Source: a virus
Taxonomy: Duplodnaviria; Caudoviricetes
DNA length: 64,000 bases
IMG/VR virus record: IMGVR_UViG_3300025875_000016
Span: 2,634 to 66,633 of that record
Reading direction: 5' to 3' (one strand)
Of the stretch, positions 8,901 through 64,000 are shown one piece after another (position 1 is the stretch's first letter; each line of letters begins with the position of its first letter). The position numbers and the translations under genes are program-made. The notes beneath the pieces are model-generated. The model was not told where the DNA came from. It made no database searches and worked only from the letters and a program-made list of their open reading frames with translations.

Positions 8901-11900
8901 TGGGAACCAAGGAGAAGAGCCAGTCGGATAAGCGACTTTCCTCTGCCTTGGATCGCACGATGGCTGGGACGTCTACCCTTCCGGGTCCTAGTGCTGCGGG
9001 GGTTAGGGCTGCTCCCTACCTGACGATCGCTCGTGGCGACGCGATGATGATTAACAACATCTATGCTGCCGAGGATGCGATCCTGAGGAGCCTCCCTGTC
9101 TTCGACGGTGTGGAGCTTGCAGCTGATATCATCGACAGTGCCAGCCAGCGTATTAACAAGGCTGTGGCTGATGCGTGGCTTGAGCAGAACCCGGCCATGG
9201 ATGTGGCCGAGAGCTACGCTGCGTTCCTGCGGGAGAAGCCGTTCGAGAAGCTCAGTGAAGCAGCTAAGGCTGATATCGCAGATATGATCGCAAGGTATCA
9301 ATCTGCTCAGGCTGGCAAGAAGGTCCTGCCTGATGTATCAAAATTGGACTCCAATAGTCAGTCCATCCACAAAGCTCTGCTAGATCAAGCAGATAGCATT
9401 CAGCTCCGTAAGGATACGCTGAAGGAAGTGCTCTACTCTGTGGATCACATGGCTTCGGCTGAGAGCCCGTACCTCTACAGGGGTCAAGCTCTTCGTACCG
9501 ATATCCCGCTACATCAGGCCCTGAATGAAATCTATGACGCCAAACAAGCCGAGCGTGCTGCCCAAGACAAGCAAGCGGTTGAGCGACCCAGTGCCGTTCT
9601 CACCAAAGCTATCTCGCAGGCGGGGCGTGGGCTCGGAGATGGAGTCGTGTCTCTCACGACCAAAGGACTGAAAAGCGTCCTGTCTCGCTTCAATGGAATG
9701 AGCCCGGACCAACGGCGCGTGGCTGACCTTGTTCGGAAGAACTTGCATGGGGACCTAACTTTCCTATTCGGATCGTCTGACTCGCTAACCCAGTACCGTA
9801 ACCAGAAGTTCCAAGACCGCCAAGGCGAGCCTGCTGTGGGGCTGGGTCAGATAGACCTACGTAATAAGGTTGTTTATGTAAGCAATCAAAGCGTTGAGAC
9901 CACTCTGCACGAAGCTGTTCACGCTATTACTATGCAGAAGATTTTCGACTTCTACCTTGCTCCAGGCAAACTGAAGCCGGAAGAAGCTGCTGCTGTGGAA
10001 AGGCTGGAGCTGCTCATGAATGATTTCATGGGCAGGGACTTCCTAGTGGCGACCGATGCTGCCACCAGTGAGGCTGCTCTCAAGCTTCAGGATACCATTA
10101 CCACTCTTATGAGTGAGGGTCTTGAAGATTCGAAAGCTGCTGCTGTCAGCGAGTTTGTGTCTTGGTCTCTTAGCAATGAGAACCTTATCCGGCTGAACAA
10201 GGCTACCCGGAACAAGAACCCCTTGGCTCAGATCAGCCAAGCTGTGCTCAAGGCTCTGGGCAAACTCTTTGGACGTCCCGACGGGGATGTGTTCTCTCAC
10301 ATCCTGTTCAACGCCAAGGTGCTTTCCACCATGGATCGGGAGACTACGGGCTCTGATGTGACTGCCACTAGGATTCTACACCATGGAAATCCTCGGGCTG
10401 ACACCCGCCTTCAGGAGATGTACGACAACCTTGAGAGCAAGATTCTTAGCTTCCTGAACTCTAAGCAGGGTCAAGAAGCTGATGCAATCCTAAGAGATGT
10501 GACTGTTGCCCGTGGTCTGGGTCTCCAGTCCACCGATATGTTCAAGGCGAACGGTTACGACAACTGGACTGAGCAGCAGAGGTCTCTGTTCGGTTCGGTC
10601 CAAGCTGTGATGGCTACTCAGATGGAGATCGAGCCGATCACCTTGGCTCGTACCCAGAAGCTATACCGTCACGTTCTGAGCAAGCTGACCTATACCGATC
10701 TGATGGAGAATCCCGACTCTCAGGATGTGGCTGAGATCACTCGGGGTCAGGCTCGGTTCCGGGTGCTCACCGGTGGTGAAGGCTCTCTTAGAGATGCTCA
10801 AGGTAATACTAACCTTCTGAGCAGCTTCCTTGCCTTGGTTCAGGTAGATGAGACCTTCCGTAAGGCTCTTACCAAGATCGACGTGCCTAAGGCGATCGAC
10901 GTCAACTGGAAAGGCTCCATGAATGAGAAGCTGGAGTCCTTTGGTCGGTCGATGATCGACGGGCTTAGTATTACCCTGACTAGAGAAGGTCGTTACAATT
11001 CCAATATCCAAGAGGCTCTGGATAAGCTCACCGCTTCCTTGGCTCAGATCGAGAAGGACAACTCCACCTATCTAGAGGTCCAAGCCAACTCGCTACTGGA
11101 CCATGGTGACGGTCTGGGCACTCGAATGCTGGAGGCTGCCGGAGACTGGCTGGGAGCTACCGCAGACGCCCGTAGAGGCGAGGCTAGGTCTAGGACCGCT
11201 AAGGCGATCTACGGTGGTGCTGGGCTGCTCTCTGGCTTCCTGAACGAGAACCGTGGGAAAGCCAGCATCCGGACGATCACGGGCTGGATGAACCAAACGG
11301 ATCACCTGCTCCCTATCCGGGAGATGGCTTCGGACGTCATCGGTATGACTGATGAGAACAAGGCTGTGCTCGCTCTGGTGGGTAAGGTGAAGTATGCGGT
11401 CTCTGCCATGCGGCAGGACTACCGGGAGAAGCTGCCTCAGATTTTCGAATCCAAGTTCAAGACCCTGCTCAAGGACGAGCAGCGTAAGGCCATGCACACG
11501 GTCATGGGCAAGGCTGATATCGCTGCCCTCAGGGATTCTATGAGCGTGAACCAAGTGGTGGAGTTGCTCAGGGATGATGCCAAGCTGAAGGCTGAAATCC
11601 AATCCACTGAGGCTGCCCTCAAGGCGATGAATAGCTATAACTTCCCGACGTTCGTCCGGAAGTCCAAGCAGCTCGCCAAGTTCATGGTTACTGGGGTTGC
11701 TGGTCAGAACCTGCTTACCAATGCGTATGCTATCAGCCAGCTTCTCAATGAGCCGAACCAGAAGGTGAGGGGCTCAATGGGTCTCCAAGGTGAGGCTCTG
11801 ATCGACAAGCTGACGAGCCTCTATGCTCTGCTGGAAGTTGATGACTACCAGAGGTTCTTGGTGGCTGATCTAGCTACCAATGAGACTGATGGTGTGGCCT

Positions 11901-13735
11901 TCATGACCGAGTATCTCTCGGCCTTGAGGATTGAGGAGAATAAGAAGGCTACCACTGAAGTTGCTAGGCTGAATGGTCTCAAGGGGTATATCCCCAATGA
12001 GGTCAAGGAGGGCGTGAGACTGGTTGTTGCTCGGGACGCTGACCATGCCTCCATGGTGGAGATGGGCTTCGTCCGTAAGGGTTCCCATACCGGTCCTCTG
12101 GGAGTGGGTCGCACGGGTCAGTCCTACAGCTACTACTACAGTGCTGTGGCTGGACGGAGCACATTCTCTCAAGGGGTGATGCAGACTGTTCAGACTCTTG
12201 CCAATGGGGTTGATCCCCTCAATGGTAAGGTTACGACTGGTATCACTGCTGGTGCTGTCCATGGAGGCAGCGTCAAATACTTCAACGATCGCATCCAGAA
12301 GAAGACCAGCTTCACTGAGCGGGAGAACCGTGAAGCATTCCTGCCTAGGTTCGATGAGAACGGTAAGCTCTCCTACTTCGAACGGATGATGGACCCGGCT
12401 CAGCTTGATATGCTGGCTCGTTCGGATGATCTGGGCGAGATGATGGGGGCTTGGCATGGTCGTATCACTGAGGAGCGGCTTGCTACAGAGTTCAACTCTA
12501 TCCTCGTGGACCGGCTCAAGGACGTCTGGGAGAGTGCTCAGAGGGAAGGTCAACAGGATGAGTTCATCAACCTTGCTGAGGAGCAGGAAGACCCGATCCT
12601 GAATGATATCTGGAACGTGGTTCCCTTCGCTATGAAGGAACAGATCGAGTCTGCCTTTGGCTCGAATACCTTCATGGTTCGTAGGGATATGCTACTGAAC
12701 TCCCTTGGCTCACGGAATGCCAGCGTGGCTGATGCCTTCACTGGTGAGACTCGTCTGCCTGAGGAAGCTCAAAAGGCGATCATCAATGTGACCAAGAGCT
12801 TGTTTGGCAAGGATGCCTTCAAGTTCTCGGTGATGGGGGAGCGTGCTATCCAGACGGCTGTTAGCTCTGCCAAGGATATCATCGTGATCCGATCGGTGAT
12901 CGTGCCTGCGATGAACTTCGTCTCAAACGAGCTTCAGCTCATCAGTGCTGGGGTTCCTTGGAGGAAGTCCATCATGGGCAAGCGTGCCAAGCTGATCGAG
13001 ATCGACACCCACCTGAAGAACCTCTCCCGGAGGATCGAGATCAAGGCTGAGCTTCAGGCTGCTCAGGATGATACCCTGAAGGCTAAGCTGCGGGCTGAGT
13101 TCAAGTCGATCGAAGACAGCGATCGAAAGATGAGCATCTACCCGTTGATCCAAGAAGGGATGTTCTCCACCATCTCTGAGGGTATGACGGAGCTTGACGA
13201 GTCTCTTGTAAATGGAAGGTTCCAAGATTGGGTCGAGAGCCAAGTGAACAAGTTGCCCGACGGTGTGAAGACTGCCGGAAAGTATGCTCTGATAACGAGG
13301 GACACTGCCCTCTATCAAGGTATGAGCCGGGCGGTTCAGTATGGGGACTTCCTCGCCAAGAGCACCCTGTACGACCATCTGGTCTCTCAGGGGATGGAGA
13401 AGCAAGAAGCGATTGATACGGTCAGGGAAGAGTTCATCGAATACAACTTTCTTGCTGGTCGTACCCGGTCCTATGCTGAGTCTATGGGTCTGATCTGGTT
13501 CTGGAACTTTAAGATCAGGTCCATCAAGATCGCCCTTAGAATGGCGAAACGTAACCCGGCTCGGGTTCTGCTGATGGGGTTTGGGGGGATTGTGCTTCCG
13601 GACCTTGGTATCGGTTCGCCCATCAAGGACAACTTCGTGTCTCTCTGGTGGGAAGGGAAGCTAGGTTATTCCATGGGTCCGGGGATGATGTTTAATGCCC
13701 CGCAGCTTCACCCTTGGATGAACCTCTTCAGATGA
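2954..13735 (+). CDS. Virion-encapsidated RNA polymerase (N4 gp50-like vRNAP)
   Basis: 3593 aa. T7-like motifs LEADGKTDGP (A), RNTMKNPLTVTTYG (B), PVFDG (C). No Cys found on reading, as in N4 vRNAP. Confidence 0.97.
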   Translation: MADGPRVPTITLPGVSFGNTVPAAPAPVAVPVVPSAAALEFLNSPAQMEAAAAARQNGNTEFTAGMIDELRTLSQPEVAAKYGPEVAARRHEIVAAEQAFQTDLNSERDMGQIVGDTALGVASSGVGMLYGAAGLLNGAFSPEAGVQAVEDGAKAQEWIRSFQSQELTERREATALMRSLDYAESAAQLEDERADGSGEFMSGLRRIGRDSLTYAASIAEDPALAVDLTAEAIGSLLPSTGAIKVANAAARGTRLAAAAGPAVIGGMEAGGAHSQAVQAVLAMSEEQLMAGSEDYRALRENPEMTHEAAQAIIANSTGMDSAATQFPLAMAAGIGVARFEAAPLRAGSVPEIARNVVSETAEEAFQGGTGQLSSNLAVQQNADVNQGLSAGVGEAVAAGALGGLGMAGTLQTPALAAETTRAATQGAVAASRARIAQVNEAIRKTGGATVEIARQGLDALDALRAPLEAAATSLPEPVAGVVPPASVAGPSAVEGTAPVTEDTVGEMLDQTGPETPAPLTPAPEQVAASRILEQIAIPQTEIDSIPETIKPIVMALNEDGSTNNSRGKMLLQAAVGLMQNPDMPADQKRSTALFAYDQVAKLQSFILEDTPAEVAGLAEDHPTRLAYDEAKMTLEAVTSIPEIKAAMEAALVAEMEPTEISEVSPEGATNTIPIEPSKVQEAVQVSTANPVGVDVGTVDRILNQDTNLTPEKIASLKAARATKIVADTVAKAKDGLAQNLAKVTGKKPRPTMDIVKKQIHLEGKTTKDPNRILPSLNDFARYISTSMSLQGNYIPDAKGNPTNAQESYDRLGDFAQHMINKIGAFNKSAQLNMDGKSIADVQVKYDTLTADGWVKASSALARPVGVTVKSPQSRAMVKEAYLDAMASVELYNQMVDIYGDKLGGKKLTLPALDQLIGGVDFKLPEVLIADLQSGSPSDPNRQEPRKLGIKDLDLENQEAEIENQTLVDEEAPTPAEDVDRAPTAEEKKIADAEAAADALADIKKVNTKVTGEVGVTRSAEPTAEEIAEAEAQLEAEEAAAAAKPKERKLRKDAVLKKKESLVDRSDEEGDQSPAPLAEVVEEKVQTNLLPNKDGISRFARAFRATPGTSLLAGLKNPLQVMIATLKNQNRIKVFSKNRIEYMVPMDQLKVLQETMAVDVPAIIEKLNARLETVEFSKGSKGIMEAYRAGRWVTDFMEGKAAALIDPETGKYDSRLAEIGVIAGIHWALNAQKNKPMDEEEIAKSFGWTLETYQNNPDLQKLAAFGMDDTQAKEGLARTIQEFMGIQAIETVTMSDTRGIIEGFASEILKAMDGSYVEIENLPSVIEQWVEDENGVGKMELLNVEKTAVKTDTENTKEELSKLGGLKGLLGDMILAEDSNKHRYVGEPPKSKVKATQRKNRFSKLSNTEQSVLTNLRKIEFYRNTPFLDFLNAMGQESTGQLFGDVNIDPDLRLFNDEKRDAEHRKKGKVNRKHRKTIEGKNLSNKMSWEGVMDHDAAIRSYAEANGMAPEDVPTYYDWYITKVGRHGMEGFGPQADKLAREAFISTVSVLDLTKPEHMEFFWMTVAQSSGISKTEKDTRSKAISDTHEKLIQKYPESLRILTEWHAAKQTDPEAQITLDQQNTIIAETGGAASAKLMHSLLAVAQLDYALSVGGPAMENFVHMLSLEADGKTDGPINAMMHFTSGRFEKHQLELLAKGGFFVNDAGATGEGKTLNEHYLTDKVDLYQAGATKMAQLMRDLKKTLVKFKSGSNNPAEFLTSLERFSSVFGDVSFDDKGDIVIGRNTMKNPLTVTTYGSGINGITGKVANSLLDSFYEQLSGVIQGDQDNKIMNYPGGEKTLQADLNLLFNGVAVYSKKKSRWFAIYDNSMDSTDLSDPWDFEFSMDQRANFLTNVRNLMVTPMDEAIQSLMGETTKATKRFQLATQIQAAVMMDKFTTRIEEELKKKRDAGDKDYLSQAEYDAIFKELEIYGAIVENNVQTLNMGTKEKSQSDKRLSSALDRTMAGTSTLPGPSAAGVRAAPYLTIARGDAMMINNIYAAEDAILRSLPVFDGVELAADIIDSASQRINKAVADAWLEQNPAMDVAESYAAFLREKPFEKLSEAAKADIADMIARYQSAQAGKKVLPDVSKLDSNSQSIHKALLDQADSIQLRKDTLKEVLYSVDHMASAESPYLYRGQALRTDIPLHQALNEIYDAKQAERAAQDKQAVERPSAVLTKAISQAGRGLGDGVVSLTTKGLKSVLSRFNGMSPDQRRVADLVRKNLHGDLTFLFGSSDSLTQYRNQKFQDRQGEPAVGLGQIDLRNKVVYVSNQSVETTLHEAVHAITMQKIFDFYLAPGKLKPEEAAAVERLELLMNDFMGRDFLVATDAATSEAALKLQDTITTLMSEGLEDSKAAAVSEFVSWSLSNENLIRLNKATRNKNPLAQISQAVLKALGKLFGRPDGDVFSHILFNAKVLSTMDRETTGSDVTATRILHHGNPRADTRLQEMYDNLESKILSFLNSKQGQEADAILRDVTVARGLGLQSTDMFKANGYDNWTEQQRSLFGSVQAVMATQMEIEPITLARTQKLYRHVLSKLTYTDLMENPDSQDVAEITRGQARFRVLTGGEGSLRDAQGNTNLLSSFLALVQVDETFRKALTKIDVPKAIDVNWKGSMNEKLESFGRSMIDGLSITLTREGRYNSNIQEALDKLTASLAQIEKDNSTYLEVQANSLLDHGDGLGTRMLEAAGDWLGATADARRGEARSRTAKAIYGGAGLLSGFLNENRGKASIRTITGWMNQTDHLLPIREMASDVIGMTDENKAVLALVGKVKYAVSAMRQDYREKLPQIFESKFKTLLKDEQRKAMHTVMGKADIAALRDSMSVNQVVELLRDDAKLKAEIQSTEAALKAMNSYNFPTFVRKSKQLAKFMVTGVAGQNLLTNAYAISQLLNEPNQKVRGSMGLQGEALIDKLTSLYALLEVDDYQRFLVADLATNETDGVAFMTEYLSALRIEENKKATTEVARLNGLKGYIPNEVKEGVRLVVARDADHASMVEMGFVRKGSHTGPLGVGRTGQSYSYYYSAVAGRSTFSQGVMQTVQTLANGVDPLNGKVTTGITAGAVHGGSVKYFNDRIQKKTSFTERENREAFLPRFDENGKLSYFERMMDPAQLDMLARSDDLGEMMGAWHGRITEERLATEFNSILVDRLKDVWESAQREGQQDEFINLAEEQEDPILNDIWNVVPFAMKEQIESAFGSNTFMVRRDMLLNSLGSRNASVADAFTGETRLPEEAQKAIINVTKSLFGKDAFKFSVMGERAIQTAVSSAKDIIVIRSVIVPAMNFVSNELQLISAGVPWRKSIMGKRAKLIEIDTHLKNLSRRIEIKAELQAAQDDTLKAKLRAEFKSIEDSDRKMSIYPLIQEGMFSTISEGMTELDESLVNGRFQDWVESQVNKLPDGVKTAGKYALITRDTALYQGMSRAVQYGDFLAKSTLYDHLVSQGMEKQEAIDTVREEFIEYNFLAGRTRSYAESMGLIWFWNFKIRSIKIALRMAKRNPARVLLMGFGGIVLPDLGIGSPIKDNFVSLWWEGKLGYSMGPGMMFNAPQLHPWMNLFR

Positions 13736-43288: not shown

Positions 43289-44524
43289 TCAGCTAAGAGC
43301 GTAGTCGGCGTGGAGAATCTTGTCCGCGATAGAGCCAAGCTTTGTAACGGTGAGGTTCTTGTCTCCAGTGATCTGACGGGCGATGAACTGGAGGAGGTTG
43401 GACTTGGCAATCTCGTAGAGAACTTGATTGTACTGCCGACGTAGATCGTTGGCGTAGTTCGGCAAGCACCGGAAGCAGTCGTGGATGGTCATAAGTTGGA
43501 AGGGAGCATCCGGCATCGACTGGATCAGCTTGGCTATGACCAGTGGGTCCACCAAGCCGAAGTTCTCTGCACAGAGATGATCCAAGATGCGAGCCGAGAG
43601 GAAGCCCGAATCCTTGTAGTGCTTCCAGAGGATGGCCACCATCTTGTCGTCGTCGGTTTCGTGGCGGATACCCTTCTGACCAGTCTGAATGTTCAGCAGA
43701 ATATCTATCAGCTTCTCCGGGTTGAACCCGCAGCGTGCTACCATCTCTCGTACTACCATCCCATCAACCGAGTGGATGACGTTCGGAGAGATCGACCGTC
43801 CTTCCTTGGTTCCCTTGTTGACCTTCACCCATACAGTGATGGGTTGGTCCATGAACTGGACCGTATGGTCTTCGAGGTCTTCGACCTTGACGTGGACGTG
43901 GAAGTTGTCCGGCAGCACCCAGTCGTGGCTGGGGGCGTAGGGTTGCCAAAGCTGCTGAAGGTCCTTGTTGAGTTCCCACGCTCCGGGAGCGAGGTCCTCC
44001 ATCACTTCGTAGAAGGTCCTGAGCTGTTCACCCAGTCCGAAGACCTTCTTTGGGATAGCAGTAGAGCTGTAGAGGGCCGTCATGATGGCTTGCTTGCAGT
44101 CAGCCCTCGTGATCTTGGCCTTCAGTCCCAGTCGCTCACACATCTCAAGGTAGATGATCGTGTAAGCGTCTGCTCGGTGGCCTATGGAGACTACGCCGCA
44201 GAGCTTAGCGGATTTCTCGCATTCCAAGAGACACGAAAGCAGTTGAAGTCCCGATGAGCAAGCGTCCAGACTGATAGGATATCCAGATGGCTCTCCGCGC
44301 AGAGCATCGCGGTATGCGGTAATTCCAGCGTAGAAAAGAGCGGGTTCATCAGCATCAGTGAGGAGTTGCGGGATGGGGTCTTTTTCTGGGTCAAGGCTGA
44401 GGATGTCCTTCTCGTTAAGCTTGAACCAAGCGATACGCTCGTCCCAGTCTTTCTTGTCGAGGCCATAGTTGTTGGCCACGTCGATCATGAGATACTCGAT
44501 AGGTGTGAACTCAGTGATGGGCAT
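43289..44524 (-). CDS. RNA polymerase II catalytic subunit (N4 gp16-like)
   Basis: LDACSSGLQ (A), [13 protein letters not shown] (B), IHDCF (C). Confidence 0.93.
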
Positions 44525-44746: not shown

Positions 44747-45622
44747 TCAGGAGGTCTTGACGACCTCCTTGTGGGCGAACTCGACCGTGGCCTTGTTCCA
44801 AGGGTTCCCTTGCGGGTTCACATGGTATCCTTGGGTGTAGGATCGGCCTCTCTTGTCGTATCGTGTGGTGATGTGGAAGCGGTTGCCGTGGAGAACCAAG
44901 TGGTCAATGACGTCCCTTGAGACCTCATCGTACTTGGCGAAGGCTTTGACGCGGGCTTGATAGTCCTTCTTGTCCTCACCCGGCTGCTGCTTGTCGAGGT
45001 TCTTCCACTTGTTCTGGATCAGCCTGACCACCTCGGTATTCAGACTGTAGGTCACTTCGTTCTGGCGGTTCAAGTGGGCCAGATAGACATCATCCTCGGT
45101 ATGGTTGTTCCTAAGGATCACGCTCTTGGAGAACGTGTAGTAGCCACTGTCGGTGTTCTTCTTTACCTCTAGTGGGACCACCAGCATGGGAAGTGGGTAC
45201 TGGTAGCGGTCGAGGTCTTGGTACACATCCTCGCTGACGTCGATACGAATGATGAAGGTAGGTTGACACTCCCTCTTCATCGTAGCGAAGTCCATCTTAT
45301 AGACCTCTTCGAAGTCTACGAAGTCCTCTTCGGCTGCTTTAAGCAGTGCATCGGCACACGCTTGGAATGGGTCTTTATGTTCCTCGAAATAGCGATGGAG
45401 GATGCCGATAAGGATATCGACTGTAGCCCGTTTGTGCAGGACCATCTGGCAGAGGAGGTCCACGAGGAATCCCTCTGGTGCTTGGCCTTCCAGTTCCAGC
45501 CCCAGTATCCTCTCCCGTACTTCTTCATCTGCGTTGAACTCCTCTCGTAGTCGGCTCATCACTTGGTTCTTGTTATAGAGATGCTCGAAGTCGATCTGGG
45601 ATTGGACGTCGGGTGTGGTCAT
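44747..45622 (-). CDS. RNA polymerase II subunit 1 (N4 gp15-like)
   Basis: YPLPMLVVP, YDKRGRSYTQGYHVNPQG. Confidence 0.9.
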   Translation of the reverse strand: MTTPDVQSQIDFEHLYNKNQVMSRLREEFNADEEVRERILGLELEGQAPEGFLVDLLCQMVLHKRATVDILIGILHRYFEEHKDPFQACADALLKAAEEDFVDFEEVYKMDFATMKRECQPTFIIRIDVSEDVYQDLDRYQYPLPMLVVPLEVKKNTDSGYYTFSKSVILRNNHTEDDVYLAHLNRQNEVTYSLNTEVVRLIQNKWKNLDKQQPGEDKKDYQARVKAFAKYDEVSRDVIDHLVLHGNRFHITTRYDKRGRSYTQGYHVNPQGNPWNKATVEFAHKEVVKTS

Positions 45623-47350: not shown

Positions 47351-47370
47351 CCGAAGGCGCGTGAGCGCCT
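47351..47370 (-). promoter_or_regulatory. Putative vRNAP hairpin promoter (template = + strand)
   Basis: C-CGAA-GGCGC-GTGA-GCGCC. Confidence 0.75.
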
Positions 47371-47590
47371 ATGTGCGTGGATAGTCTACAGCATGAGCCT
47401 TGAGGGCATCAGCAGCATAGCCCATGGCTCCTAAAGCCCTGAGGGTTGGTTCTCCAAGGTCGATGTACTCGCCACCTTTCTGGAGAACGAGCCTTTGGGT
47501 ATCGCCTACATTGGCAATTCCTAAGTCCCAGTTCTGAGTGAGTGAGACGAAAATGCCGCCATGGACTTCGTTTTGATTGAAGGTTTTCAT
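47369..47590 (-). CDS. Hypothetical protein, 73 aa
   Basis: ATGA overlap with upstream stop. Confidence 0.6.
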   Translation of the reverse strand: MKTFNQNEVHGGIFVSLTQNWDLGIANVGDTQRLVLQKGGEYIDLGEPTLRALGAMGYAADALKAHAVDYPRT

Positions 47591-48096
47591 CGTACAGTCC
47601 TTGTGATTTTGTTGATGCCTGCAAAGACGTCAGCCACACTCATGGAGCCAAAGTTGAAGATGGGAATACCCTCTTCCTCGGCTATCCTGATGGCTGTAGC
47701 TGTGCCATTGACGGTCTTACCGCCTTCAGTCCAGCAGACCATGAACTCGCTGGGATCATCGAGATCAGGTCCACCAAGCTGATGAACGTTGCGAGCATGA
47801 AGCTTCTGGGCTCCTTGGCTCAGCTTATGCCACGCAGGGTGGAACATCTGGGCTATCTCGAAAGCCTGAGCACTAGGCTTTGTGTAGTAGTCATTGCCGA
47901 AGCGACCTTCGAATCCAGCCCAAGGTAGAAAGATTTGCTTATGCTTGGCTCCTAGCTCGAAAGCTGTATCAGCACCCTCAGCAGCGCCTGAGCGTAAGCA
48001 CCAGTTCTGCTCTCCTAGACAGAGAGCGAGCTGTATCATCTGAGCTTGTATCATCTTGGGAGTTTTGCGTGATCCGACGCCAGTGTAGTATCGCAT
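47587..48096 (-). CDS. SLOG-superfamily (DprA/YspA-like) protein
   Basis: YYTGVGSRKTP...LRSGAAEGADTAFE...HARNVHQ..G...GGKT..GTATAIR. Confidence 0.75.
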   Translation of the reverse strand: MRYYTGVGSRKTPKMIQAQMIQLALCLGEQNWCLRSGAAEGADTAFELGAKHKQIFLPWAGFEGRFGNDYYTKPSAQAFEIAQMFHPAWHKLSQGAQKLHARNVHQLGGPDLDDPSEFMVCWTEGGKTVNGTATAIRIAEEEGIPIFNFGSMSVADVFAGINKITRTVR

Positions 48097-48113
48097 ATTG
48101 TATGCCCCCATAT

Positions 48114-48143
48114 AAAAAAAGGGAGGAGCTTTTGCTCCCCCCT
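48114..48143 (-). terminator. Intrinsic terminator
   Basis: + strand A-run + GGAGC-TTTT-GCTCC. Confidence 0.65.
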
Positions 48144-48164
48144 TATAGGTATACCAGCTCTAGC

Positions 48165-48488
48165 TTAGCAGATGCCGATACAGTTGTCGTTTTGAGATGG
48201 TTGGGCGGGAGAGGTTCGATCACTGTAAGCGTAGGTCACGTTACCGCTTTTGTCCTTCACGATGTACGTACCACTGGGATAGATTCGCCCATTCCAATAG
48301 ACTGGTCGAGAGACCGGACGAGTCACTGGATGACCATTGCGATCGGTCTGGACACCACCGGGGTTGTTGGTGGGGTTGTTGTTCCCCGCTTGGGTCGTGG
48401 TCTTGTGGTCAGCATGAACCATGGGAACCATGGTCAGCAGCATAGCCACCGTCAGGATGAGGGAGCTGAGGATTTGCGAGAGTCGCAT
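48165..48488 (-). CDS. Putative exported protein with signal peptide
   Basis: MRLSQILSSLILTVAMLLTMVPMVHA/D, AxA-like cleavage site. Confidence 0.6.
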   Translation of the reverse strand: MRLSQILSSLILTVAMLLTMVPMVHADHKTTTQAGNNNPTNNPGGVQTDRNGHPVTRPVSRPVYWNGRIYPSGTYIVKDKSGNVTYAYSDRTSPAQPSQNDNCIGIC

Positions 48489-48520
48489 AGTGGGTAATCT
48501 CCAAGTTGATGGCGTTAGCT

Positions 48521-49198
48521 TTAACGCCGAAGAGCACGATCGAGGATGTCTCCAAGAGTTTGTCCTTCGTCACCGAAGTTGTCTCGATAGTAGTCCTTCA
48601 TGGTATATCCCTGAACCTCATGCCTAAGTACCACATCATGAGGAATCGTGAGAACATCTTCAAGACGAGGCTTGAGCTTGAGAGTGTTCAGCTCTTTCTC
48701 CGCAGCGATGAGCTTGTCATACTCATACTGGGAGATGGTCACGCTGGGAGCGTGGTAGCTGTAGTCGTAGTCGTAAGGATCGGAATCGTAGTAGTCGTCG
48801 TAACCATCCTCATACGAATAGTCCTTGAAGAACTCCCGCTCTTCGTCTTCTAGGCTCTTTTCGTATTCAGCCATTTCGGCATCATACCAGAGCTTGAAGT
48901 CCTCTTCGGAGAGGTTCTCCTCAGCAGCTTGAGCCATGGAGATATCGTCACGCAGGCATTCCTGCATATGACGAATGGAAGCCTGACGCTTACGCTTGAC
49001 GGTTAGCTTCTTGATGAACTTGCGACCGTCTCCGGGTTGATGACCTTGGATTCCCCATCCAGCGTGTCCACCAGCGCGATCGCGGTTCTTATGGTCGATT
49101 TCCACATTCTCATAATGGGAGAATGTATAATAGCTGGAGGGATTACGACGCATCATGAAGTCAGAGAACTCACGGACGATGGTAAGACGCTTCTGCAT
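48521..49198 (-). CDS. Hypothetical protein with Tyr/Asp-rich tract
   Basis: 225 aa; GGAG RBS. Confidence 0.7.
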   Translation of the reverse strand: MQKRLTIVREFSDFMMRRNPSSYYTFSHYENVEIDHKNRDRAGGHAGWGIQGHQPGDGRKFIKKLTVKRKRQASIRHMQECLRDDISMAQAAEENLSEEDFKLWYDAEMAEYEKSLEDEEREFFKDYSYEDGYDDYYDSDPYDYDYSYHAPSVTISQYEYDKLIAAEKELNTLKLKPRLEDVLTIPHDVVLRHEVQGYTMKDYYRDNFGDEGQTLGDILDRALRR

Positions 49199-49225
49199 TT
49201 GCGACTCCTATTAGTCTTGATTGGC

Positions 49226-49501
49226 TTACGCCGGGAAAGGTCTCTGGGTAGCACGACGCTCTAGTTCGTCGTTCAGCTCTTTGAGCTTTCTAGGATTGTT
49301 ATCCTTACGCTCTAGGAACCTGATCGTATTGGTCAGGTGGTAATAACTCATCTCTTGGAGCTTCCACACCTTTCCGTTGTGGTCCATCCAGAGGCCCTTG
49401 GGTATCTTCTTGGGTCTCGGAGGCTTGGCTGTCTCAGATACATACTGGTCCCAAGAGAGGTCCATGTACTGGTTGATGATGTCGTCAGCTATCTCGCCCA
49501 T
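49226..49501 (-). CDS. Hypothetical protein, 91 aa
   Basis: Start reassigned to MGEIADD (TGATG coupling with the upstream micro-ORF). Confidence 0.6.
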   Translation of the reverse strand: MGEIADDIINQYMDLSWDQYVSETAKPPRPKKIPKGLWMDHNGKVWKLQEMSYYHLTNTIRFLERKDNNPRKLKELNDELERRATQRPFPA

Positions 49502-49638
49502 CAGAGAATGGCCTCGCACCTGTAGATGATGCCCGGTTGTTGGGTCATAAGTTCCAACTTTGTATGGCACTCACCATGGTTGAAACCACCATCAATGATG
49601 AAGCCGAAGCCATTCATGATGACTACGATGACATACAT
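49501..49638 (-). CDS. Hypothetical protein, 45 aa (not in ORF track)
   Basis: GGAGG RBS; MYVIVVIMNGFGFIIDGGFNHGECHTKLELMTQQPGIIYRCEAIL. Confidence 0.5.
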   Translation of the reverse strand: MYVIVVIMNGFGFIIDGGFNHGECHTKLELMTQQPGIIYRCEAIL

Positions 49639-49794
49639 TTTCGCCTCCTATGGCATAGGTGTGGTTTAGCGGTTGGGGCTATCTTTTTGAACTTTAGGAT
49701 TTAGGTGCCCAACTTTAGGTCCAACTCTAGAGTTGACCATCGTATCCAATTTTTTACCCCTCCAGCTTGCGCCAGAGGGGTAAAGTAGGTGTGC

Positions 49795-50205
49795 TTACGC
49801 CACCTTCAGGCCAGCGGCAGCGAGGGCTGCCATCAGCGGGTTCTCGTCGGCGCTCGGCTCGCTCTGGGCGGTGTTGCGACGGTAGACCTGGATTTCCAGA
49901 CCTTCGATCAACTCGCCTTCGCCAGCCTCAAGCCCGGTGCCGACTTCCTGAAGGAACTTCAGGATGGCGTTCTTCACCGCGACTTGGTTCGCCCAAGCCT
50001 TGCTGTTGCCCCGGACGGGCATGGGCTCGGTCGTGTCCAGCGGGATGCCCACCGGCAGGGAGATGAACGTCGGCTTCATCGTGCCGTCGGGCTGCTCCAC
50101 GGGGAGCGTCTTGCCGATGTTGACCCACACTTGGGCCTGCGGGCGCTCGTCGCGGTCGGACGAACGGTTGGAACGCTGGGTTTCCTTGGAACCGAAAACG
50201 GCCAT
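49795..50205 (-). CDS. N4 gp2-like ssDNA-binding activator of RNAP II
   Basis: PQAQVWVNIG...FISLPVGIPLD pattern; early-region position. Confidence 0.75.
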   Translation of the reverse strand: MAVFGSKETQRSNRSSDRDERPQAQVWVNIGKTLPVEQPDGTMKPTFISLPVGIPLDTTEPMPVRGNSKAWANQVAVKNAILKFLQEVGTGLEAGEGELIEGLEIQVYRRNTAQSEPSADENPLMAALAAAGLKVA

Positions 50206-50248
50206 GGTAGACTCCTCGGGTTAGAGCGTGGGCACAACGCCAGACGCT

Positions 50249-50267
50249 CGTCAGGCGCGTGAGCGCC
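50249..50267 (-). promoter_or_regulatory. Putative vRNAP hairpin promoter
   Basis: C-GTCA-GGCGC-GTGA-GCGCC; 44 nt from the gp2-like ATG. Confidence 0.8.
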
Positions 50268-50371
50268 CCTTGCGACAGTGGGGAAGGCGACGGACTATGA
50301 GTTAGGACGCCCAAGTGTATTGGGACGAGAGCCCCCCCAGCAGAGCTGGGAGGGACAGGAGAATCAAGGAC

Positions 50372-50776
50372 TTAGAAGTCCCGGAAGCTCATAGAGCGAG
50401 CATCCTTTTCTCCATAGAAGCACTTGTGCATCTCATGGAGCTTGACCTTGACCTTGTGCATGGCACCGTTGACGCAGCACATACCGTAGAAGCCGTAGTC
50501 ACCGGCGTTCTCACCCACGATCACGGTCCCTTTGGGGATGATCGGGAGCTGGTCTGTGTGATAGTCGTTGCCGACGTCCTCCAGCACGGTGATGTGGAGA
50601 CCCTCAATGGCACGGGATTCCGTGACGTTGAGGTAGGTTTGGAACATCGCGGGGACGATGTGACTCATGGATTCTCTCCTGACTTGGGGTGTGGGATTGG
50701 CGAGTTCGCGGGCAAGGATGGAACCAAGGGATTCAGCTTGGGCCTTGCCAAAGAGTTTATCTACGTCGATCGGCAT
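50372..50776 (-). CDS. Hypothetical early protein, 134 aa
   Basis: ORF directly after the upstream stop. Confidence 0.6.
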   Translation of the reverse strand: MPIDVDKLFGKAQAESLGSILARELANPTPQVRRESMSHIVPAMFQTYLNVTESRAIEGLHITVLEDVGNDYHTDQLPIIPKGTVIVGENAGDYGFYGMCCVNGAMHKVKVKLHEMHKCFYGEKDARSMSFRDF

Positions 50777-50779
50777 GGT

Positions 50780-50959
50780 TCAGCACTCTCTGTTGGAGAT
50801 GAGTTGATACTGGAGCTTGACTCCAGCATGAGGGATGGTGAGCTTGGCCTCTTTGGCCAGATGAGTGAGGATAAGCGTATCCTCTTGGACCTCATCTACC
50901 CTTGCCATCCCTGAGTTAGGGGACAGCAATGTAACGTAGTCTCCGGGCTTGATAGCCAT
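50780..50959 (-). CDS. Small early protein, 59 aa
   Basis: MAIKPGDY start with AGGAGG RBS. Confidence 0.65.
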   Translation of the reverse strand: MAIKPGDYVTLLSPNSGMARVDEVQEDTLILTHLAKEAKLTIPHAGVKLQYQLISNREC

Positions 50960-51000
50960 GCTATCCTCCTGAAATGAATAGGGGATACCCTTTCGGATAT

Positions 51001-51019
51001 CCCCAAAGGCGTGAGCCTT
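51001..51019 (-). promoter_or_regulatory. Putative vRNAP hairpin promoter
   Basis: C-CCCA-AAGGC-GTGA-GCCTT; 42 nt from the ATG. Confidence 0.75.
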
Positions 51020-51338
51020 ACTTGGCCTTGTTGCCCTTGCCACCCTCGGGCTTGTAGCCCTTGGTGGACTGAGGAAGGCTCCTCATCTTGGGCTTGGCCA
51101 CGGGCTGCTTGTGGGCCTTCTTGGGCTCCACGGAGATGCCAAGGTGGGCACGAGCCATATTCAGGCTCGGATGGTCGTTGACAGCACCGATGTTGGTGCC
51201 GTCGTAGTCCTTCGGCAGCGTCAGGTAGCAGTCAAGCTCACCCTTGTGGTTGGTGATCTTGGCGATCGAGAACGCCACGTCCTGCGGGCCAGCGGAGCCG
51301 ACGGTGGGAACGATGTGCGATTCGAGGATGCGGAGCAT
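51018..51338 (-). CDS. Basic early protein, 106 aa
   Basis: ORF with Lys-rich tail. Confidence 0.6.
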   Translation of the reverse strand: MLRILESHIVPTVGSAGPQDVAFSIAKITNHKGELDCYLTLPKDYDGTNIGAVNDHPSLNMARAHLGISVEPKKAHKQPVAKPKMRSLPQSTKGYKPEGGKGNKAK

Positions 51339-51412
51339 AGAGGTATCCTATCTATCTGAGGACAAAGGAAAAGAGAGAGCCCTAAGGCTCCCCCTTGTTT
51401 GGTTCAGCGGGT

Positions 51413-51571
51413 TCAGTTCTGGGTGTTGACGACGGGCGTCAGAGCCACCTTGAACTGAGTGTCGAGCCGAGCACACGCCTCATCGAACGACTCGATGTTG
51501 GAGCGGAGCAGTTGAAGCTCGGGATGAGCTTGCGGGCGACGGACGACTTGAGCGAGGGATTGCGTTTGCAT
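51413..51571 (-). CDS. Small early protein, 52 aa (not in ORF track)
   Basis: GGAGTCTAC RBS; MQTQSLAQVVRRPQAHPELQLLRSNIESFDEACARLDTQFKVALTPVVNTQN. Confidence 0.6.
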   Translation of the reverse strand: MQTQSLAQVVRRPQAHPELQLLRSNIESFDEACARLDTQFKVALTPVVNTQN

Positions 51572-51616
51572 TTGTAGACTCCGGATGCTGATGGAGTGGA
51601 GACCTAGGAACTAGGC

Positions 51617-51636
51617 CACTAGCCGCGTGAGCGGCT
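51617..51636 (-). promoter_or_regulatory. Putative vRNAP hairpin promoter
   Basis: C-ACTA-GCCGC-GTGA-GCGGC; 46 nt from the ATG. Confidence 0.8.
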
Positions 51637-51795
51637 CTTCTTCTTACGGGGTATGGCTTGGTTCAGGTATTTGTCGTTCTGGGCCAACCACTTAGCATTG
51701 TCGAGGGTATAACCCTGACGACGATAGCGGTTGATCCGCTGGCGATCTTGGAAGGACTCCAAGGCTCTAGCGATATCTCGGATGAGCTGGATCAT
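51619..51795 (-). CDS. Small basic early protein, 58 aa (not in ORF track)
   Basis: GAGG RBS; MIQLIRDIARALESFQDRQRINRYRRQGY... Confidence 0.55.
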   Translation of the reverse strand: MIQLIRDIARALESFQDRQRINRYRRQGYTLDNAKWLAQNDKYLNQAIPRKKKSRSRG

Positions 51796-51959
51796 CTTGG
51801 TTCCTCTAGGTTGACCGGTTGTATGAGAAAGGCTTGATCGCCTTTCATGATCTCCCGAATGAGCAGTATGCGAACTGCTTTTTTGCGGGCCTCTAGAACA
51901 GCCTCCAAAGACTGATAGTCAATGGAGCCGTCCTTCTTAACTACGCCCATGGGTCTCAC
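51792..51959 (-). CDS. Small early protein, 55 aa (GTG start; not in ORF track)
   Basis: GGAG RBS; ATGA overlap with the next gene. Confidence 0.5.
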   Translation of the reverse strand: MRPMGVVKKDGSIDYQSLEAVLEARKKAVRILLIREIMKGDQAFLIQPVNLEEPR

Positions 51960-51968
51960 GGGATACTC

Positions 51969-52145
51969 CTAGTGCTCGTTGTGGATGGACCTCCACGAGT
52001 AGTAGAGGATGGGAGCGAAGCCAATCACGATGAAGAGCACCGCGATAGCATACAGTCCCAGATGGGGAACTTCACCACCATTGGCGTGAGCCAAGATGAT
52101 GAAGATGAAGGCCATGAAGTGGCTGAGGGTAACTAGGAAGAACAT
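51969..52145 (-). CDS. Small two-TM membrane protein, 58 aa (not in ORF track)
   Basis: GGAG RBS; MFFLVTLSHFMAFIFIILAHANGGEVPHLGLYAIAVLFIVIGFAPILYYSWRSIHNEH. Confidence 0.55.
   Translation of the reverse strand: MFFLVTLSHFMAFIFIILAHANGGEVPHLGLYAIAVLFIVIGFAPILYYSWRSIHNEH
52076..52094 (-). promoter_or_regulatory. Putative vRNAP hairpin promoter, inside a CDS
   Basis: C-ACCA-TTGGC-GTGA-GCCAA. Confidence 0.6.
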
Positions 52146-52249
52146 TAGAATCTCCGATTCTAGTTTGAGTTGCGGGGAATAAGCTATCGGATAGGAAAGC
52201 TATCCTTAGCTCTTGGTTCCCCCAGCCCGTAGGCTGAGGGAAGATGAGT

Positions 52250-52651
52250 TTAGGACTCGGTTTCTGTTTGCTCCTGCGTATTCTTCGGAGCGTCGGGGTC
52301 GATGGGAGCGACCTTGATGCCGTTGACCGGATCGTAGGTTTCGCCGCGACGGGCGAGGTCAGCGACATAGAGTGCCATTAGGCGAGGGTTCTTGTTGAGC
52401 TGGTCTTGGAGTTCCAGCATGGAGGAGTGGTGCTCGATGTCCTTGGTAGCGTTGTGCCTGATGATGGCACGTTCTTTGTCACGCTCGATACCGAGAGTGA
52501 CCTTTGCATTCCAGGCTTCTGCCTGGTGAGCGAGGGTGTCCACGATGGAGCCGACGCCTTGGACAGAGCGTGCGGTAGTGGACGAGGTAGTGCGGACGAC
52601 GTTGAGCAGGTCAACGAGGGTGGCACGACCAGTGGTGATGACTCCAGTCAT
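52250..52651 (-). CDS. N4 gp1-like first early protein
   Basis: Start MTGVITT with GGAGTCTAC RBS; amphipathic helical sequence; first gene after the outermost hairpin promoter. Confidence 0.6.
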   Translation of the reverse strand: MTGVITTGRATLVDLLNVVRTTSSTTARSVQGVGSIVDTLAHQAEAWNAKVTLGIERDKERAIIRHNATKDIEHHSSMLELQDQLNKNPRLMALYVADLARRGETYDPVNGIKVAPIDPDAPKNTQEQTETES

Positions 52652-52697
52652 AGTGGTAGACTCCAAAGGTTGAGGTTGATGTGATGATCCACACAAC

Positions 52698-52717
52698 CAA
52701 TAGGGGCGTGAGCCCCT
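52698..52717 (-). promoter_or_regulatory. Putative vRNAP hairpin promoter (outermost, Pe1-like)
   Basis: C-AATA-GGGGC-GTGA-GCCCC; 47 nt from the ATG. Confidence 0.82.
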
Positions 52718-52836
52718 GTGTATGGGTTGATAGGGGGGGGTGGTTTGGAGTTGAGAGACTGGAGGTCTAATACAACCTCAGGAGGTACATGAGATTTTGT
52801 ACTCCCCTAAAATATATATTAGAAAATCCTATTCCC

Positions 52837-54384: not shown

Positions 54385-54464
54385 TGGGTTTCCTAGGAGG
54401 GACTCGAACCCACTACCCCGCCCTTGTATGGTGGGCGTGCTCTAACCTTTGAGCTACTAGGAAC
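54385..54464 (-). tRNA. tRNA-like gene with aberrant 9-nt anticodon loop (Val-UAC-like; possibly a pseudogene)
   Basis: Acceptor TTCCTAG/CTAGGAA, D-arm GCTC/GAGC, anticodon stem CGCCC/GGGCG, T-loop TTCGAGT; loop ACCATACAA lacks U33. Confidence 0.65.
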
Positions 54465-63766: not shown

Positions 63767-64000
63767 GTGCCCATTATGCCTCAAGACACTCTGTACGATC
63801 AAGCTGGGGCTCCGGGTCCGGCAGGTCCGATGGGTCCCCAAGGTCCGGAAGGGCCTATGGGGCCTCCGGGTCCAAAAGGTGACAAAGGTGATACTGGCAA
63901 TACCGGTCCTGCGGGACCTCAAGGTGTTGCTGGTCCTGCTGGCTCTACTGGTGCTCAGGGACCTATGGGTCCTCCGGGCACTGGTGGGGGTAGTGGTGGG
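63767..64000 (+). CDS. Second collagen-like protein (runs off the window; not in ORF track)
   Basis: GTG/ATG start after AAGGA; [31 protein letters not shown]... open to the window end. Confidence 0.75.

What the first reader, a model, noticed from the sequence alone, without database searches (positions are those of the whole stretch)
47351..52717. Six N4-geometry hairpin promoters with a GTGA tetraloop instead of a triloop
Seen: GC-GTGA-GC occurs at 47359, 50257, 51009, 51625, 52084 and 52706, always on the + strand, the template for these genes. Each copy has a perfect 5-bp stem whose outer bases differ, so pairing is conserved rather than sequence. Each is preceded by C-N3-A: C-CGAA-GGCGC, C-GTCA-GGCGC, C-CCCA-AAGGC, C-ACTA-GCCGC, C-ACCA-TTGGC, C-AATA-GGGGC. 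I saw no other copy in the window by eye. Four predicted +1 sites lie 42-47 nt before an ATG. Established: N4 vRNAP promoters are template hairpins with a 5-bp stem, a 3-nt loop and +1 C four nt from the stem (P2: TCC-AAAA-GAAGC-GGA-GCTTC). Inference: this vRNAP reads a new 4-nt-loop promoter class and uses twice N4's three early promoters, making it a candidate orthogonal ssDNA-hairpin polymerase/promoter pair.
Basis: partly seen in the sequence, partly recalled or inferred. Interest (0 to 1): 0.85.

Follow-up and report, generated by a model that had tools for sequence, protein, structure and literature searches.

The report
Tetraloop hairpin promoters, N4-like phage
An uncultured N4-type phage has six small DNA hairpins with a four-base loop (N4 uses three) in its first-expressed gene block, almost certainly start signals for the RNA polymerase it injects. 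This is a real variant of a known mechanism, and it recurs in other phages of the family.

Summary
GCGTGAGC occurs six times in the 66.6-kb virus record, all on the + strand and all within 47.3-52.7 kb. Every copy has a perfect 5-bp stem and the flank C-N3-A. Chance predicts about 0.003 such sites.

The genome is an N4-like schitovirus. It has a 3593-aa vRNAP, the two RNAPII subunits and an N4 gp2 homologue. The hairpins lie on the template strand of the early genes, upstream of gp2 and RNAPII. They keep N4's -8G, -9C, loop G...A, 4-nt spacer and +1 C.

The closest relative found is a 13-kb metagenome contig. It has five GC-GTGA-GC copies at matching positions, with compensatory stem changes. 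So these are very probably vRNAP early promoters with a G-N-N-A tetraloop.

- The tetraloop is not unique. Similar tetraloop hairpins sit before gp1 and gp2 in Erwinia phages Frozen and Ea9-2, and before gp2 homologues in Erwinia phage S6 and a Rhizobium phage. They also occur in several uncultured genomes, scattered among triloop relatives. This scan also noted them earlier on other DNA.
- Six promoters is not unusual. LUZ7 has nine early starts.
- Orthogonality is untested.

I found no paper describing tetraloop vRNAP promoters.

The parts
52698..52716 (+). Promoter 6, the leftmost in phage orientation. Predicted +1 C at 52698, 4-nt spacer, and hairpin 52703-52716 (5-bp stem, GTGA loop) on the template strand. 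It drives - strand transcription of the first early gene (52651..52250, 133 aa), 47 nt downstream.
   Evidence: The orthologous copy, with identical stem and upstream flank, lies at L012:29 before the 76%-identical first gene.
52076..52094 (+). Promoter-like copy 5. +1 C at 52076, hairpin 52081-52094. It has the weakest stem and lies inside the 58-aa ORF 51969..52145 (-). The next start is GTG 51959, 117 nt away.
   Evidence: DNA fold -4.7 kcal/mol. There is no counterpart in L012. It matches the full consensus.
51617..51635 (+). Promoter 4. +1 C at 51617, hairpin 51622-51635. It overlaps the last codons of ORF 51619..51795 (-) and lies 46 nt before ATG 51571.
   Evidence: The orthologous copy at L012:1274 sits in the 3' end of the homologous 60-aa gene, with one base pair flipped.
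51001..51019 (+). Promoter 3. +1 C at 51001, hairpin 51006-51019. It overlaps the stop codon of ORF 51018..51338 (-) and lies 42 nt before ATG 50959.
50249..50267 (+). Promoter 2. +1 C at 50249, hairpin 50254-50267. It lies 44 nt before the ATG of the N4 gp2 homologue.
   Evidence: The orthologous copy at L012:2844 has two base pairs flipped, and a tandem copy sits at L012:2776.
47351..47369 (+). Promoter 1. +1 C at 47351, hairpin 47356-47369. It lies 73 nt before ATG 47278 and heads the block that runs into the RNAPII genes.
   Evidence: No - strand terminator-like site was found between it and the RNAPII genes.
49795..50205 (-). Homologue of N4 gp2, the ssDNA-binding cofactor of RNAPII. It is an early gene.
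   Evidence: phrog_4099. tblastn hits to N4-like 'ssDNA-binding protein' genes. PF26984 Phage_N4_Gp2 on its relatives. N4 gp2 aligns at 34% identity, E 2e-15.
44747..45622 (-). RNAPII small subunit (N4 gp15-like).
   Evidence: phrog_2166, E 4e-87.
43289..44524 (-). RNAPII large subunit (N4 gp16-like).
   Evidence: phrog_2051, E 9e-157; PF00940.
2954..13735 (+). Virion RNA polymerase (3593 aa), the enzyme proposed to read the hairpins.
   Evidence: ORF. The central 1300 aa match N4 mini-vRNAP structures 3c2p/2po4 at E 5.5e-82.
51371..51396 (-). Intrinsic-terminator-like hairpin with a T-rich tail, ending the unit started at promoter 4.
48119..48144 (-). Classic intrinsic-terminator-like hairpin (11-bp stem, T run) after ORF 48165..48488.

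Best explanation
The six hairpins are early promoters for the phage's injected virion RNA polymerase (vRNAP), and they work as in coliphage N4.

Proposed mechanism, inferred by analogy with N4:
1. After the left end of the genome enters the cell, negative supercoiling extrudes each inverted repeat.
2. The template-strand arm folds into a 5-bp hairpin closed by C:G.
3. The loop's first G and last A can form a sheared pair, leaving two bases exposed where N4 has one.
4. The vRNAP binds this hairpin. It reads the conserved G and C in the promoter-proximal arm (N4 positions -8 and -9) and the loop.
5. It starts RNA with GTP opposite the invariant C, four bases from the stem foot.

Shown here: the motif, its strand and position, the covariation, the conservation in a relative, and the presence of an N4-like vRNAP. 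Inferred: hairpin extrusion, vRNAP binding and the exact start base.

The promoters would switch on the first genes, the gp2-like cofactor and the RNAPII subunits.
For: - The motif is far beyond chance: six copies against about 0.003 expected. All six are on the template strand within 5.4 kb at the early end of the genome.
- The geometry equals N4 P1-P3, recovered by the same scan as a control: +1 C, a 4-nt spacer ending in A, and a 5-bp stem whose inner pairs are G:C then C:G. N4's conserved heptamer GC-G(R)A-GC becomes GC-GTGA-GC here. The published determinants are -11R, -10G, -8G and +1C, with a sheared -10G:-12A pair (PMC4496689).
- The genome encodes a vRNAP homologous to N4 mini-vRNAP (E 5.5e-82).
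- The hairpins precede a gp2 homologue and the RNAPII genes, which must be expressed before RNAPII exists.
- The closest relative, L012 (gp2 72%, RNAPII large subunit 81% identical), has five GC-GTGA-GC hairpins on its template strand, all with C-N3-A. Three sit at syntenic positions with zero, one and two compensatory base-pair flips.
- Across the 11 copies, 55 of 55 stem cells pair. All three outer pairs show double-sided changes, and 0 of 500 shuffles reach the covariation score.
- Other relatives carry triloop versions (GGA, GAA, GTA, AGA, GCA, AAG) with the same strand and C-N3-A spacing, often just upstream of gp2.
- Predicted RNAs start GG (four copies) or GA (two). G is the start base in N4 and LUZ7.
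Against: - There are no transcript data.
- The 3-nt loop with a central purine, a defining N4 feature read by R119 and W129, is not met.
- In the pairwise alignment the residue at N4 R119 is G, and the specificity-loop R904 position is A. Recognition chemistry therefore cannot simply be copied from N4.
- Copy 5 lies inside an ORF, has the weakest stem and has no counterpart in L012.
- Copy 6 is weakly flagged as terminator-like on the - strand.
Confidence: 0.85

Rival explanations
1. They are middle promoters read by the phage's two-subunit RNAPII, like the GC-rich hairpin middle promoters mapped in Pseudomonas phage LUZ7.
For: LUZ7 middle promoters are GC-rich hairpins with 3-4 nt loops about 15 nt upstream of a G start (PMC9163698). 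A 4-nt loop therefore has a precedent there.
Against: All six copies lie upstream of the RNAPII genes and the gp2 cofactor, and one precedes the very first early gene. None lies in the 14-43 kb replication (middle) block. LUZ7 middle hairpins have stems of at least 6 bp. The spacing and the conserved -8G, -9C and +1C match the vRNAP promoters of N4, and the triloop relatives carry them at the same sites.
Confidence: 0.05
2. They act in the RNA rather than the DNA, as weak terminators, RNase processing sites or mRNA-stabilising stem-loops between early genes.
For: Several copies abut or overlap the stop codon of the upstream gene (copies 3 and 4). One copy is flagged by the simple terminator scan on the - strand.
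Against: On the - strand the loop reads TCAC. Five of the six copies were not flagged as terminator-like on the - strand, whereas genuine intrinsic terminators with T runs occur nearby (48144-48119, 51396-51371). The invariant bases lie on the side that would be downstream in the RNA, at a fixed C-N3-A offset. That offset has no meaning for a terminator but equals N4's +1 and spacer. Four copies sit 42-47 nt before a start codon. In L012 the first copy is 29 nt from the contig end, before the first gene.
Confidence: 0.05
3. They are binding sites for some other protein (a phage or host regulator, or an origin or packaging factor), or a short repeat spread without function.
For: A conserved 8-mer core could be a protein recognition site in duplex DNA.
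Against: The outer stem bases covary instead of being conserved, which indicates a folded strand and not a duplex site. Strict single-strand polarity and a fixed offset to start codons fit a promoter. The element is exchangeable with N4-type triloop promoters in relatives.
Confidence: 0.04

Closest known systems
Coliphage N4 early promoters P1, P2, P3 (vRNAP template-strand hairpin promoters)
   Same: Both lie on the template strand in the early, left-end region, before gp1/gp2 and RNAPII. Both have a 5-bp stem with variable outer and fixed inner pairs (G at -8, C at -9), a C:G loop-closing pair, a loop that begins with G and ends with A, a 4-nt spacer and +1 C. Both genomes encode a giant vRNAP.
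   Different: The loop has four bases (GTGA) instead of three (GGA or GAA), so there is no single central -11 purine. There are six copies instead of three. N4's R119 and R904 are not conserved at the aligned positions of this vRNAP.
Pseudomonas phage LUZ7 early promoters (ONT-cappable-seq)
   Same: Both have many early starts (nine in LUZ7), some inside coding regions, and G as the first base. LUZ7 has tandem promoters before its main RNAPII cofactor gene. L012 has tandem copies before gp2.
   Different: LUZ7 early hairpins have a conserved 3-nt loop.
Unreported tetraloop hairpins in cultured schitoviruses (Erwinia phages Frozen and Ea9-2; Erwinia phage S6; Rhizobium phage RHph_X3_15)
   Same: All are template-strand 5-bp hairpins with a G-N-N-A loop, a C five bases from the stem and a C:G closing pair. 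They sit 39-60 nt before the gp1 or gp2 homologues.
   Different: The loops are GTAA, GGAA or GTTA, not GTGA. Only one or two copies were detected per genome with my strict filter. S6 and RHph_X3_15 have a CC/GG inner stem instead of GC/GC.
LUZ7 middle (RNAPII) hairpin promoters
   Same: Both are GC-rich hairpins, and a 3-4 nt loop is allowed.
   Different: Those lie in the middle region, have stems of at least 6 bp and depend on RNAPII and Drc. The copies here precede the RNAPII genes.

Membership tests
N4-type vRNAP hairpin promoter | Inverted repeat on the template strand of early genes, near the genome end that enters first | tested here: met
   All six copies are on the + strand while the genes run on the - strand. 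They cluster at 47.3-52.7 kb, upstream of gp2 and RNAPII.
N4-type vRNAP hairpin promoter | 5-7 bp stem whose outer bases are free as long as they pair, with conserved inner bases (-8G, -9C) and a C:G closing pair | tested here: met
   55 of 55 cells pair, three outer pairs covary and two inner pairs are invariant in 11 copies.
N4-type vRNAP hairpin promoter | 3-nt loop with a central purine (-11) | tested here: not met
   The loop is GTGA in 6 of 6 copies here and 5 of 5 in L012.
N4-type vRNAP hairpin promoter | Loop 5' G and 3' A able to form a sheared pair | tested here: inconclusive
   The first loop base is G and the last is A in all copies. The pair itself cannot be shown from sequence, and the fold program has no term for it.
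N4-type vRNAP hairpin promoter | +1 C on the template four bases from the stem foot (8 nt from -8G) | tested here: met
   C is invariant at that position in 11 of 11 copies. This shows sequence conservation only. The start site itself is not mapped.
N4-type vRNAP hairpin promoter | Genome encodes a vRNAP with an N4 mini-vRNAP-like polymerase domain | tested here: met
   3593-aa ORF, E 5.5e-82 to PDB 3c2p/2po4.
N4-type vRNAP hairpin promoter | Rifampicin-resistant, gyrase- and SSB-dependent initiation; vRNAP binding to the ssDNA hairpin | not testable with these tools
   The phage is uncultured and no RNA data were available.
Intrinsic (rho-independent) terminator | GC-rich stem followed directly by a U run on the transcribed strand | tested here: not met
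   Only copy 6 is weakly flagged on the - strand. True terminator-like sites lie elsewhere.
LUZ7-type RNAPII middle promoter | Located in and driving the middle (replication) gene block, after RNAPII is made | tested here: not met
   No copy lies in 14-43 kb. All lie upstream of the RNAPII genes.

The most novel reading that the evidence does not exclude
Loop length is a specificity switch. On this reading, this vRNAP (and those of the other tetraloop phages) requires a G-N-N-A tetraloop and rejects N4-type triloops, while N4 vRNAP does the reverse. Schitoviruses would then have flipped several times between two mutually orthogonal ssDNA-hairpin promoter codes, with matching changes in the loop-reading '-11 recognition element'. 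That would give a natural set of orthogonal single-subunit polymerase and hairpin-promoter pairs.
Probability: 0.3. Interest if true: 0.65.

Novelty: new variant of a known kind. Interest (0 to 1): 0.45.

Why it matters
N4 vRNAP is the only well-studied RNA polymerase that reads a folded single-stranded DNA hairpin. Its structures show tight, base-specific reading of a 3-nt loop. A lineage that uses only 4-nt loops, plus scattered tetraloop users next to triloop relatives, suggests that the loop-reading module is evolutionarily plastic. It also points to cultured phages (Erwinia phages Frozen, Ea9-2 and S6) in which this can be tested at the bench.

If loop size proves discriminating, it offers orthogonal ssDNA promoter and polymerase pairs for in vitro transcription from single-stranded templates.

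It also matters for annotation. Searches for vRNAP promoters in N4-like genomes that insist on a triloop will miss these sites, or they may be labelled as terminators.

Tried and rejected
- Nucleotide searches of GenBank phages with the early region, near and distant modes, found nothing.
- Single-protein searches of IMG/VR found no close relative with gp2 and only relatives about 50% identical with RNAPII.
- A DNA pattern for the first promoter plus its conserved upstream flank found no further IMG/VR copy.
- The one metagenome scan (gp2 profile) returned 12 loci. All promoter-like hairpins found upstream of gp2 had triloops, and there were no further GTGA genomes.
- I looked for a vRNAP residue signature separating tetraloop from triloop phages in a 14-genome alignment. 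The -11 recognition element and the specificity loop are too variable to align reliably, and no consistent signature emerged. The window's apparent 4-residue insertion after the W129 equivalent is not shared by the other tetraloop phages.
- The gene before promoter 3 is not an N4 gp1 homologue, and no gp1 homologue was detected in the early region.
- The two key N4 promoter papers (Davydova 2007, Gleghorn 2008) are not held. I could not check whether loop-size mutants of N4 promoters were ever tested.
- The careful tree search did not finish, so only the quick tree is reported.


Full report
WHAT THE WINDOW IS. The window is bases 2634-66633 of a 66,633-bp linear IMG/VR virus record, estimated about 90% complete. 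It encodes a 3593-aa protein (2954..13735, +) whose central 1300 residues match the crystal and cryo-EM structures of the coliphage N4 virion RNA polymerase (vRNAP) at E 5.5e-82. It also encodes both subunits of an N4-type RNAPII (44747..45622 and 43289..44524, -) and a homologue of N4 gp2, the ssDNA-binding RNAPII cofactor (49795..50205, -). It is therefore an N4-like phage (Schitoviridae). No GenBank phage matches at nucleotide level, and the best RNAPII protein identity is about 53%. The small - strand genes between about 47 and 52.7 kb form the early block. They sit upstream of the RNAPII genes, as in N4.

THE OBSERVATION. GCGTGAGC occurs six times, only on the + strand, at exactly the stated coordinates. 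It occurs nowhere else in the record. Each copy is the core of a perfect 5-bp stem with a GTGA loop, and the three outer pairs differ among copies. All six also have C five bases and A one base 5' of the stem. Markov simulations give 0.04 hairpins and 0.003 full motifs per window, against six observed. A relaxed scan (any G...A loop of 3-4 nt, one mismatch allowed) finds only scattered, unrelated background hits. It finds no N4-type triloop in the early region.

POSITION RELATIVE TO GENES. Genes here are on the - strand, so + is the template strand. On the template written 5' to 3', the transcribed side lies to the left of each hairpin. The invariant C therefore sits where N4 has +1. From that C the next start codon with a Shine-Dalgarno site is 47 nt away (copy 6, first early gene), 46 nt (copy 4), 42 nt (copy 3), 44 nt (copy 2, gp2 homologue) and 73 nt (copy 1). 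Copy 5 lies inside a 58-aa ORF, 117 nt from the next start. Copies 3 and 4 overlap the end of the preceding gene. Predicted RNAs begin GG (four copies) or GA (two). Two good intrinsic-terminator-like sites on the - strand (48144-48119 and 51396-51371) divide the region into units. Only copy 6 is weakly flagged as terminator-like.

COMPARISON WITH N4. The review of N4 polymerases (PMC4496689) gives these promoter features:
- A conserved GC-rich heptamer centred at -11, flanked by inverted repeats.
- vRNAP reads -11 purine, -10G, -8G and +1C.
- -10G and -12A form a sheared pair.
- The C:G closing pair is required.
- The four spacer bases act as a ruler, so that initiation occurs eight bases from -8.

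My scan recovers N4 P1, P2 and P3 in NC_008720 with exactly this layout. The element in the window is N4's heptamer with one extra loop base. It keeps the proximal-arm G and C, the loop's first G and last A, the distal G and C, the 4-nt spacer ending in A, and the +1 C. Everything except loop length matches.

RELATIVES. A search of the large protein collection with the gp2 homologue found a 72%-identical protein on a 13-kb metagenome contig, L012. Its RNAPII large subunit is 81% identical. L012 has five GC-GTGA-GC hairpins, all on the template strand and all with C-N3-A. Synteny pairs three of them with window copies:
- The first promoter has an identical stem and an identical upstream flank.
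- The copy embedded in the 3' end of a homologous roughly 60-aa gene has one base pair flipped.
- The gp2 promoter has two base pairs flipped. L012 also has a second copy 68 nt upstream of it.

Across all 11 copies, 55 of 55 stem positions pair. All three outer pairs show double-sided changes, and no shuffle of 500 reaches the covariation score. The next-nearest contigs (RNAPII 62% identical) and about 25 other schitovirus loci carry triloop hairpins (GGA, GAA, GTA, GCA, AGA, AAG). These have the same strand and the same C-N3-A/G spacing, often directly before gp2. The tetraloop element thus occupies the slot that N4-type promoters occupy in relatives.

NOT UNIQUE. The same scan finds tetraloop hairpins elsewhere:
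- Erwinia phages Frozen and Ea9-2 have GTAA before gp1 and GGAA before gp2.
- Erwinia phage S6 has GTTA 39 nt before its gp2 homologue.
- Rhizobium phage RHph_X3_15 has GTAA before its gp2 homologue.
- Three IMG/VR genomes have GTAA, GCAA or GTCA.

On a quick vRNAP tree the four tetraloop genomes included are scattered. Three of them pair directly with a triloop genome and one branches alone, so loop length probably changed several times. Long branches make the details unsafe. Earlier notes of this scan also list tetraloop candidates in at least five other N4-like genomes. GTGA itself was seen only in the window and L012.

LITERATURE. Every paper I could read describes 3-nt loops: N4, LUZ7/LIT1/PEV2, the LUZ7 cappable-seq study and Pectobacterium CB1-like phages. 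Three full-text searches found no report of tetraloop vRNAP promoters. LUZ7 has nine early starts, and one metagenome relative has eight triloop copies. Six copies is therefore ordinary.

THE POLYMERASE. In the pairwise alignment with N4 mini-vRNAP, the equivalents of K114 and W129 are kept. R119, which bonds -11G, aligns with G, and four residues are inserted after the W. In the specificity loop, N4 D901 and R904 align with R and A. A 14-genome alignment shows both elements to be highly variable across the family, with no signature separating tetraloop from triloop phages. This fits a diverged loop-reading surface, but it is weak evidence.

RIVALS. RNAPII middle promoters of the LUZ7 type can have 4-nt loops. 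However, the copies here precede the RNAPII and gp2 genes and are absent from the middle block. Terminator or RNA stem-loop readings fail for three reasons: no - strand terminator call for five of six copies, the conserved bases at N4's +1 and spacer offset, and the fixed distance to start codons. A duplex protein-binding site is contradicted by the covarying stems.

VERDICT. The promoter reading is very likely (about 0.85). The tetraloop is a real variant of the N4 promoter and is apparently undescribed in print, but it is recurrent in the family and is not a new class peculiar to this phage. Orthogonality remains an open and testable idea.

Noticed in passing
window 54389-54463 (-): This tRNA gene scores 46 bits in Rfam. 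ARAGORN calls it tRNA-Tyr with anticodon ATA. By eye the anticodon stem seems to enclose about nine bases instead of seven, so its decoding identity is unclear.
   Followed up: partly
window 63777-64000 (+), running off the window: This gene starts with a long collagen-like Gly-X-Y repeat (many GGNCC words). It is probably a tail-fibre-type protein. The repeat produces spurious hairpin hits in relaxed scans at 58-64 kb.
   Followed up: partly
window 52717-52728; L012:1-28; N4 (L028) about 75-89; Frozen (L032) about 85-96; L008, L033, L075: The leftmost promoter hairpin in many schitoviruses is followed on its upstream side by a short GTGTA-containing motif within about 10 bases. The hairpin sits about 75-100 nt from the physical left end in records that start at the terminus. 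This may be a conserved end-proximal element.
   Followed up: no
window 52651-52670, 51571-51590, 50205-50222: Three of the six leaders share a near-identical ribosome-binding segment (GGAGTCTAC followed by 1-4 bases and ATG). This suggests duplicated promoter-leader modules.
   Followed up: no
window 50981-51004 (-): A 10-bp terminator-like hairpin with a GAAA loop and a T-rich tail starts three bases upstream of the predicted +1 of promoter 3. It may stop read-through from the upstream gene, or form a 5' stem in the new transcript.
   Followed up: no
window 47587-48111 (-): A DprA-like DNA recombination-mediator gene (phrog_768, E 2e-53) lies inside the early block. Stenotrophomonas phage Pokken has one in its early region too.
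   Followed up: no
L012:9850-10086 and L013:9024-9518: Relatives carry genes with Acb2/Tad1-hairpin (PF24729) and Tad2-like (PF11195) domains just after the RNAPII genes. These are likely anti-defence sponge proteins.
   Followed up: no
L076:3177-5831: A metagenome schitovirus contig has eight template-strand hairpins with a GTA triloop and C-N3-A spacing within 2.7 kb. This is the densest promoter array seen in the survey.
   Followed up: no
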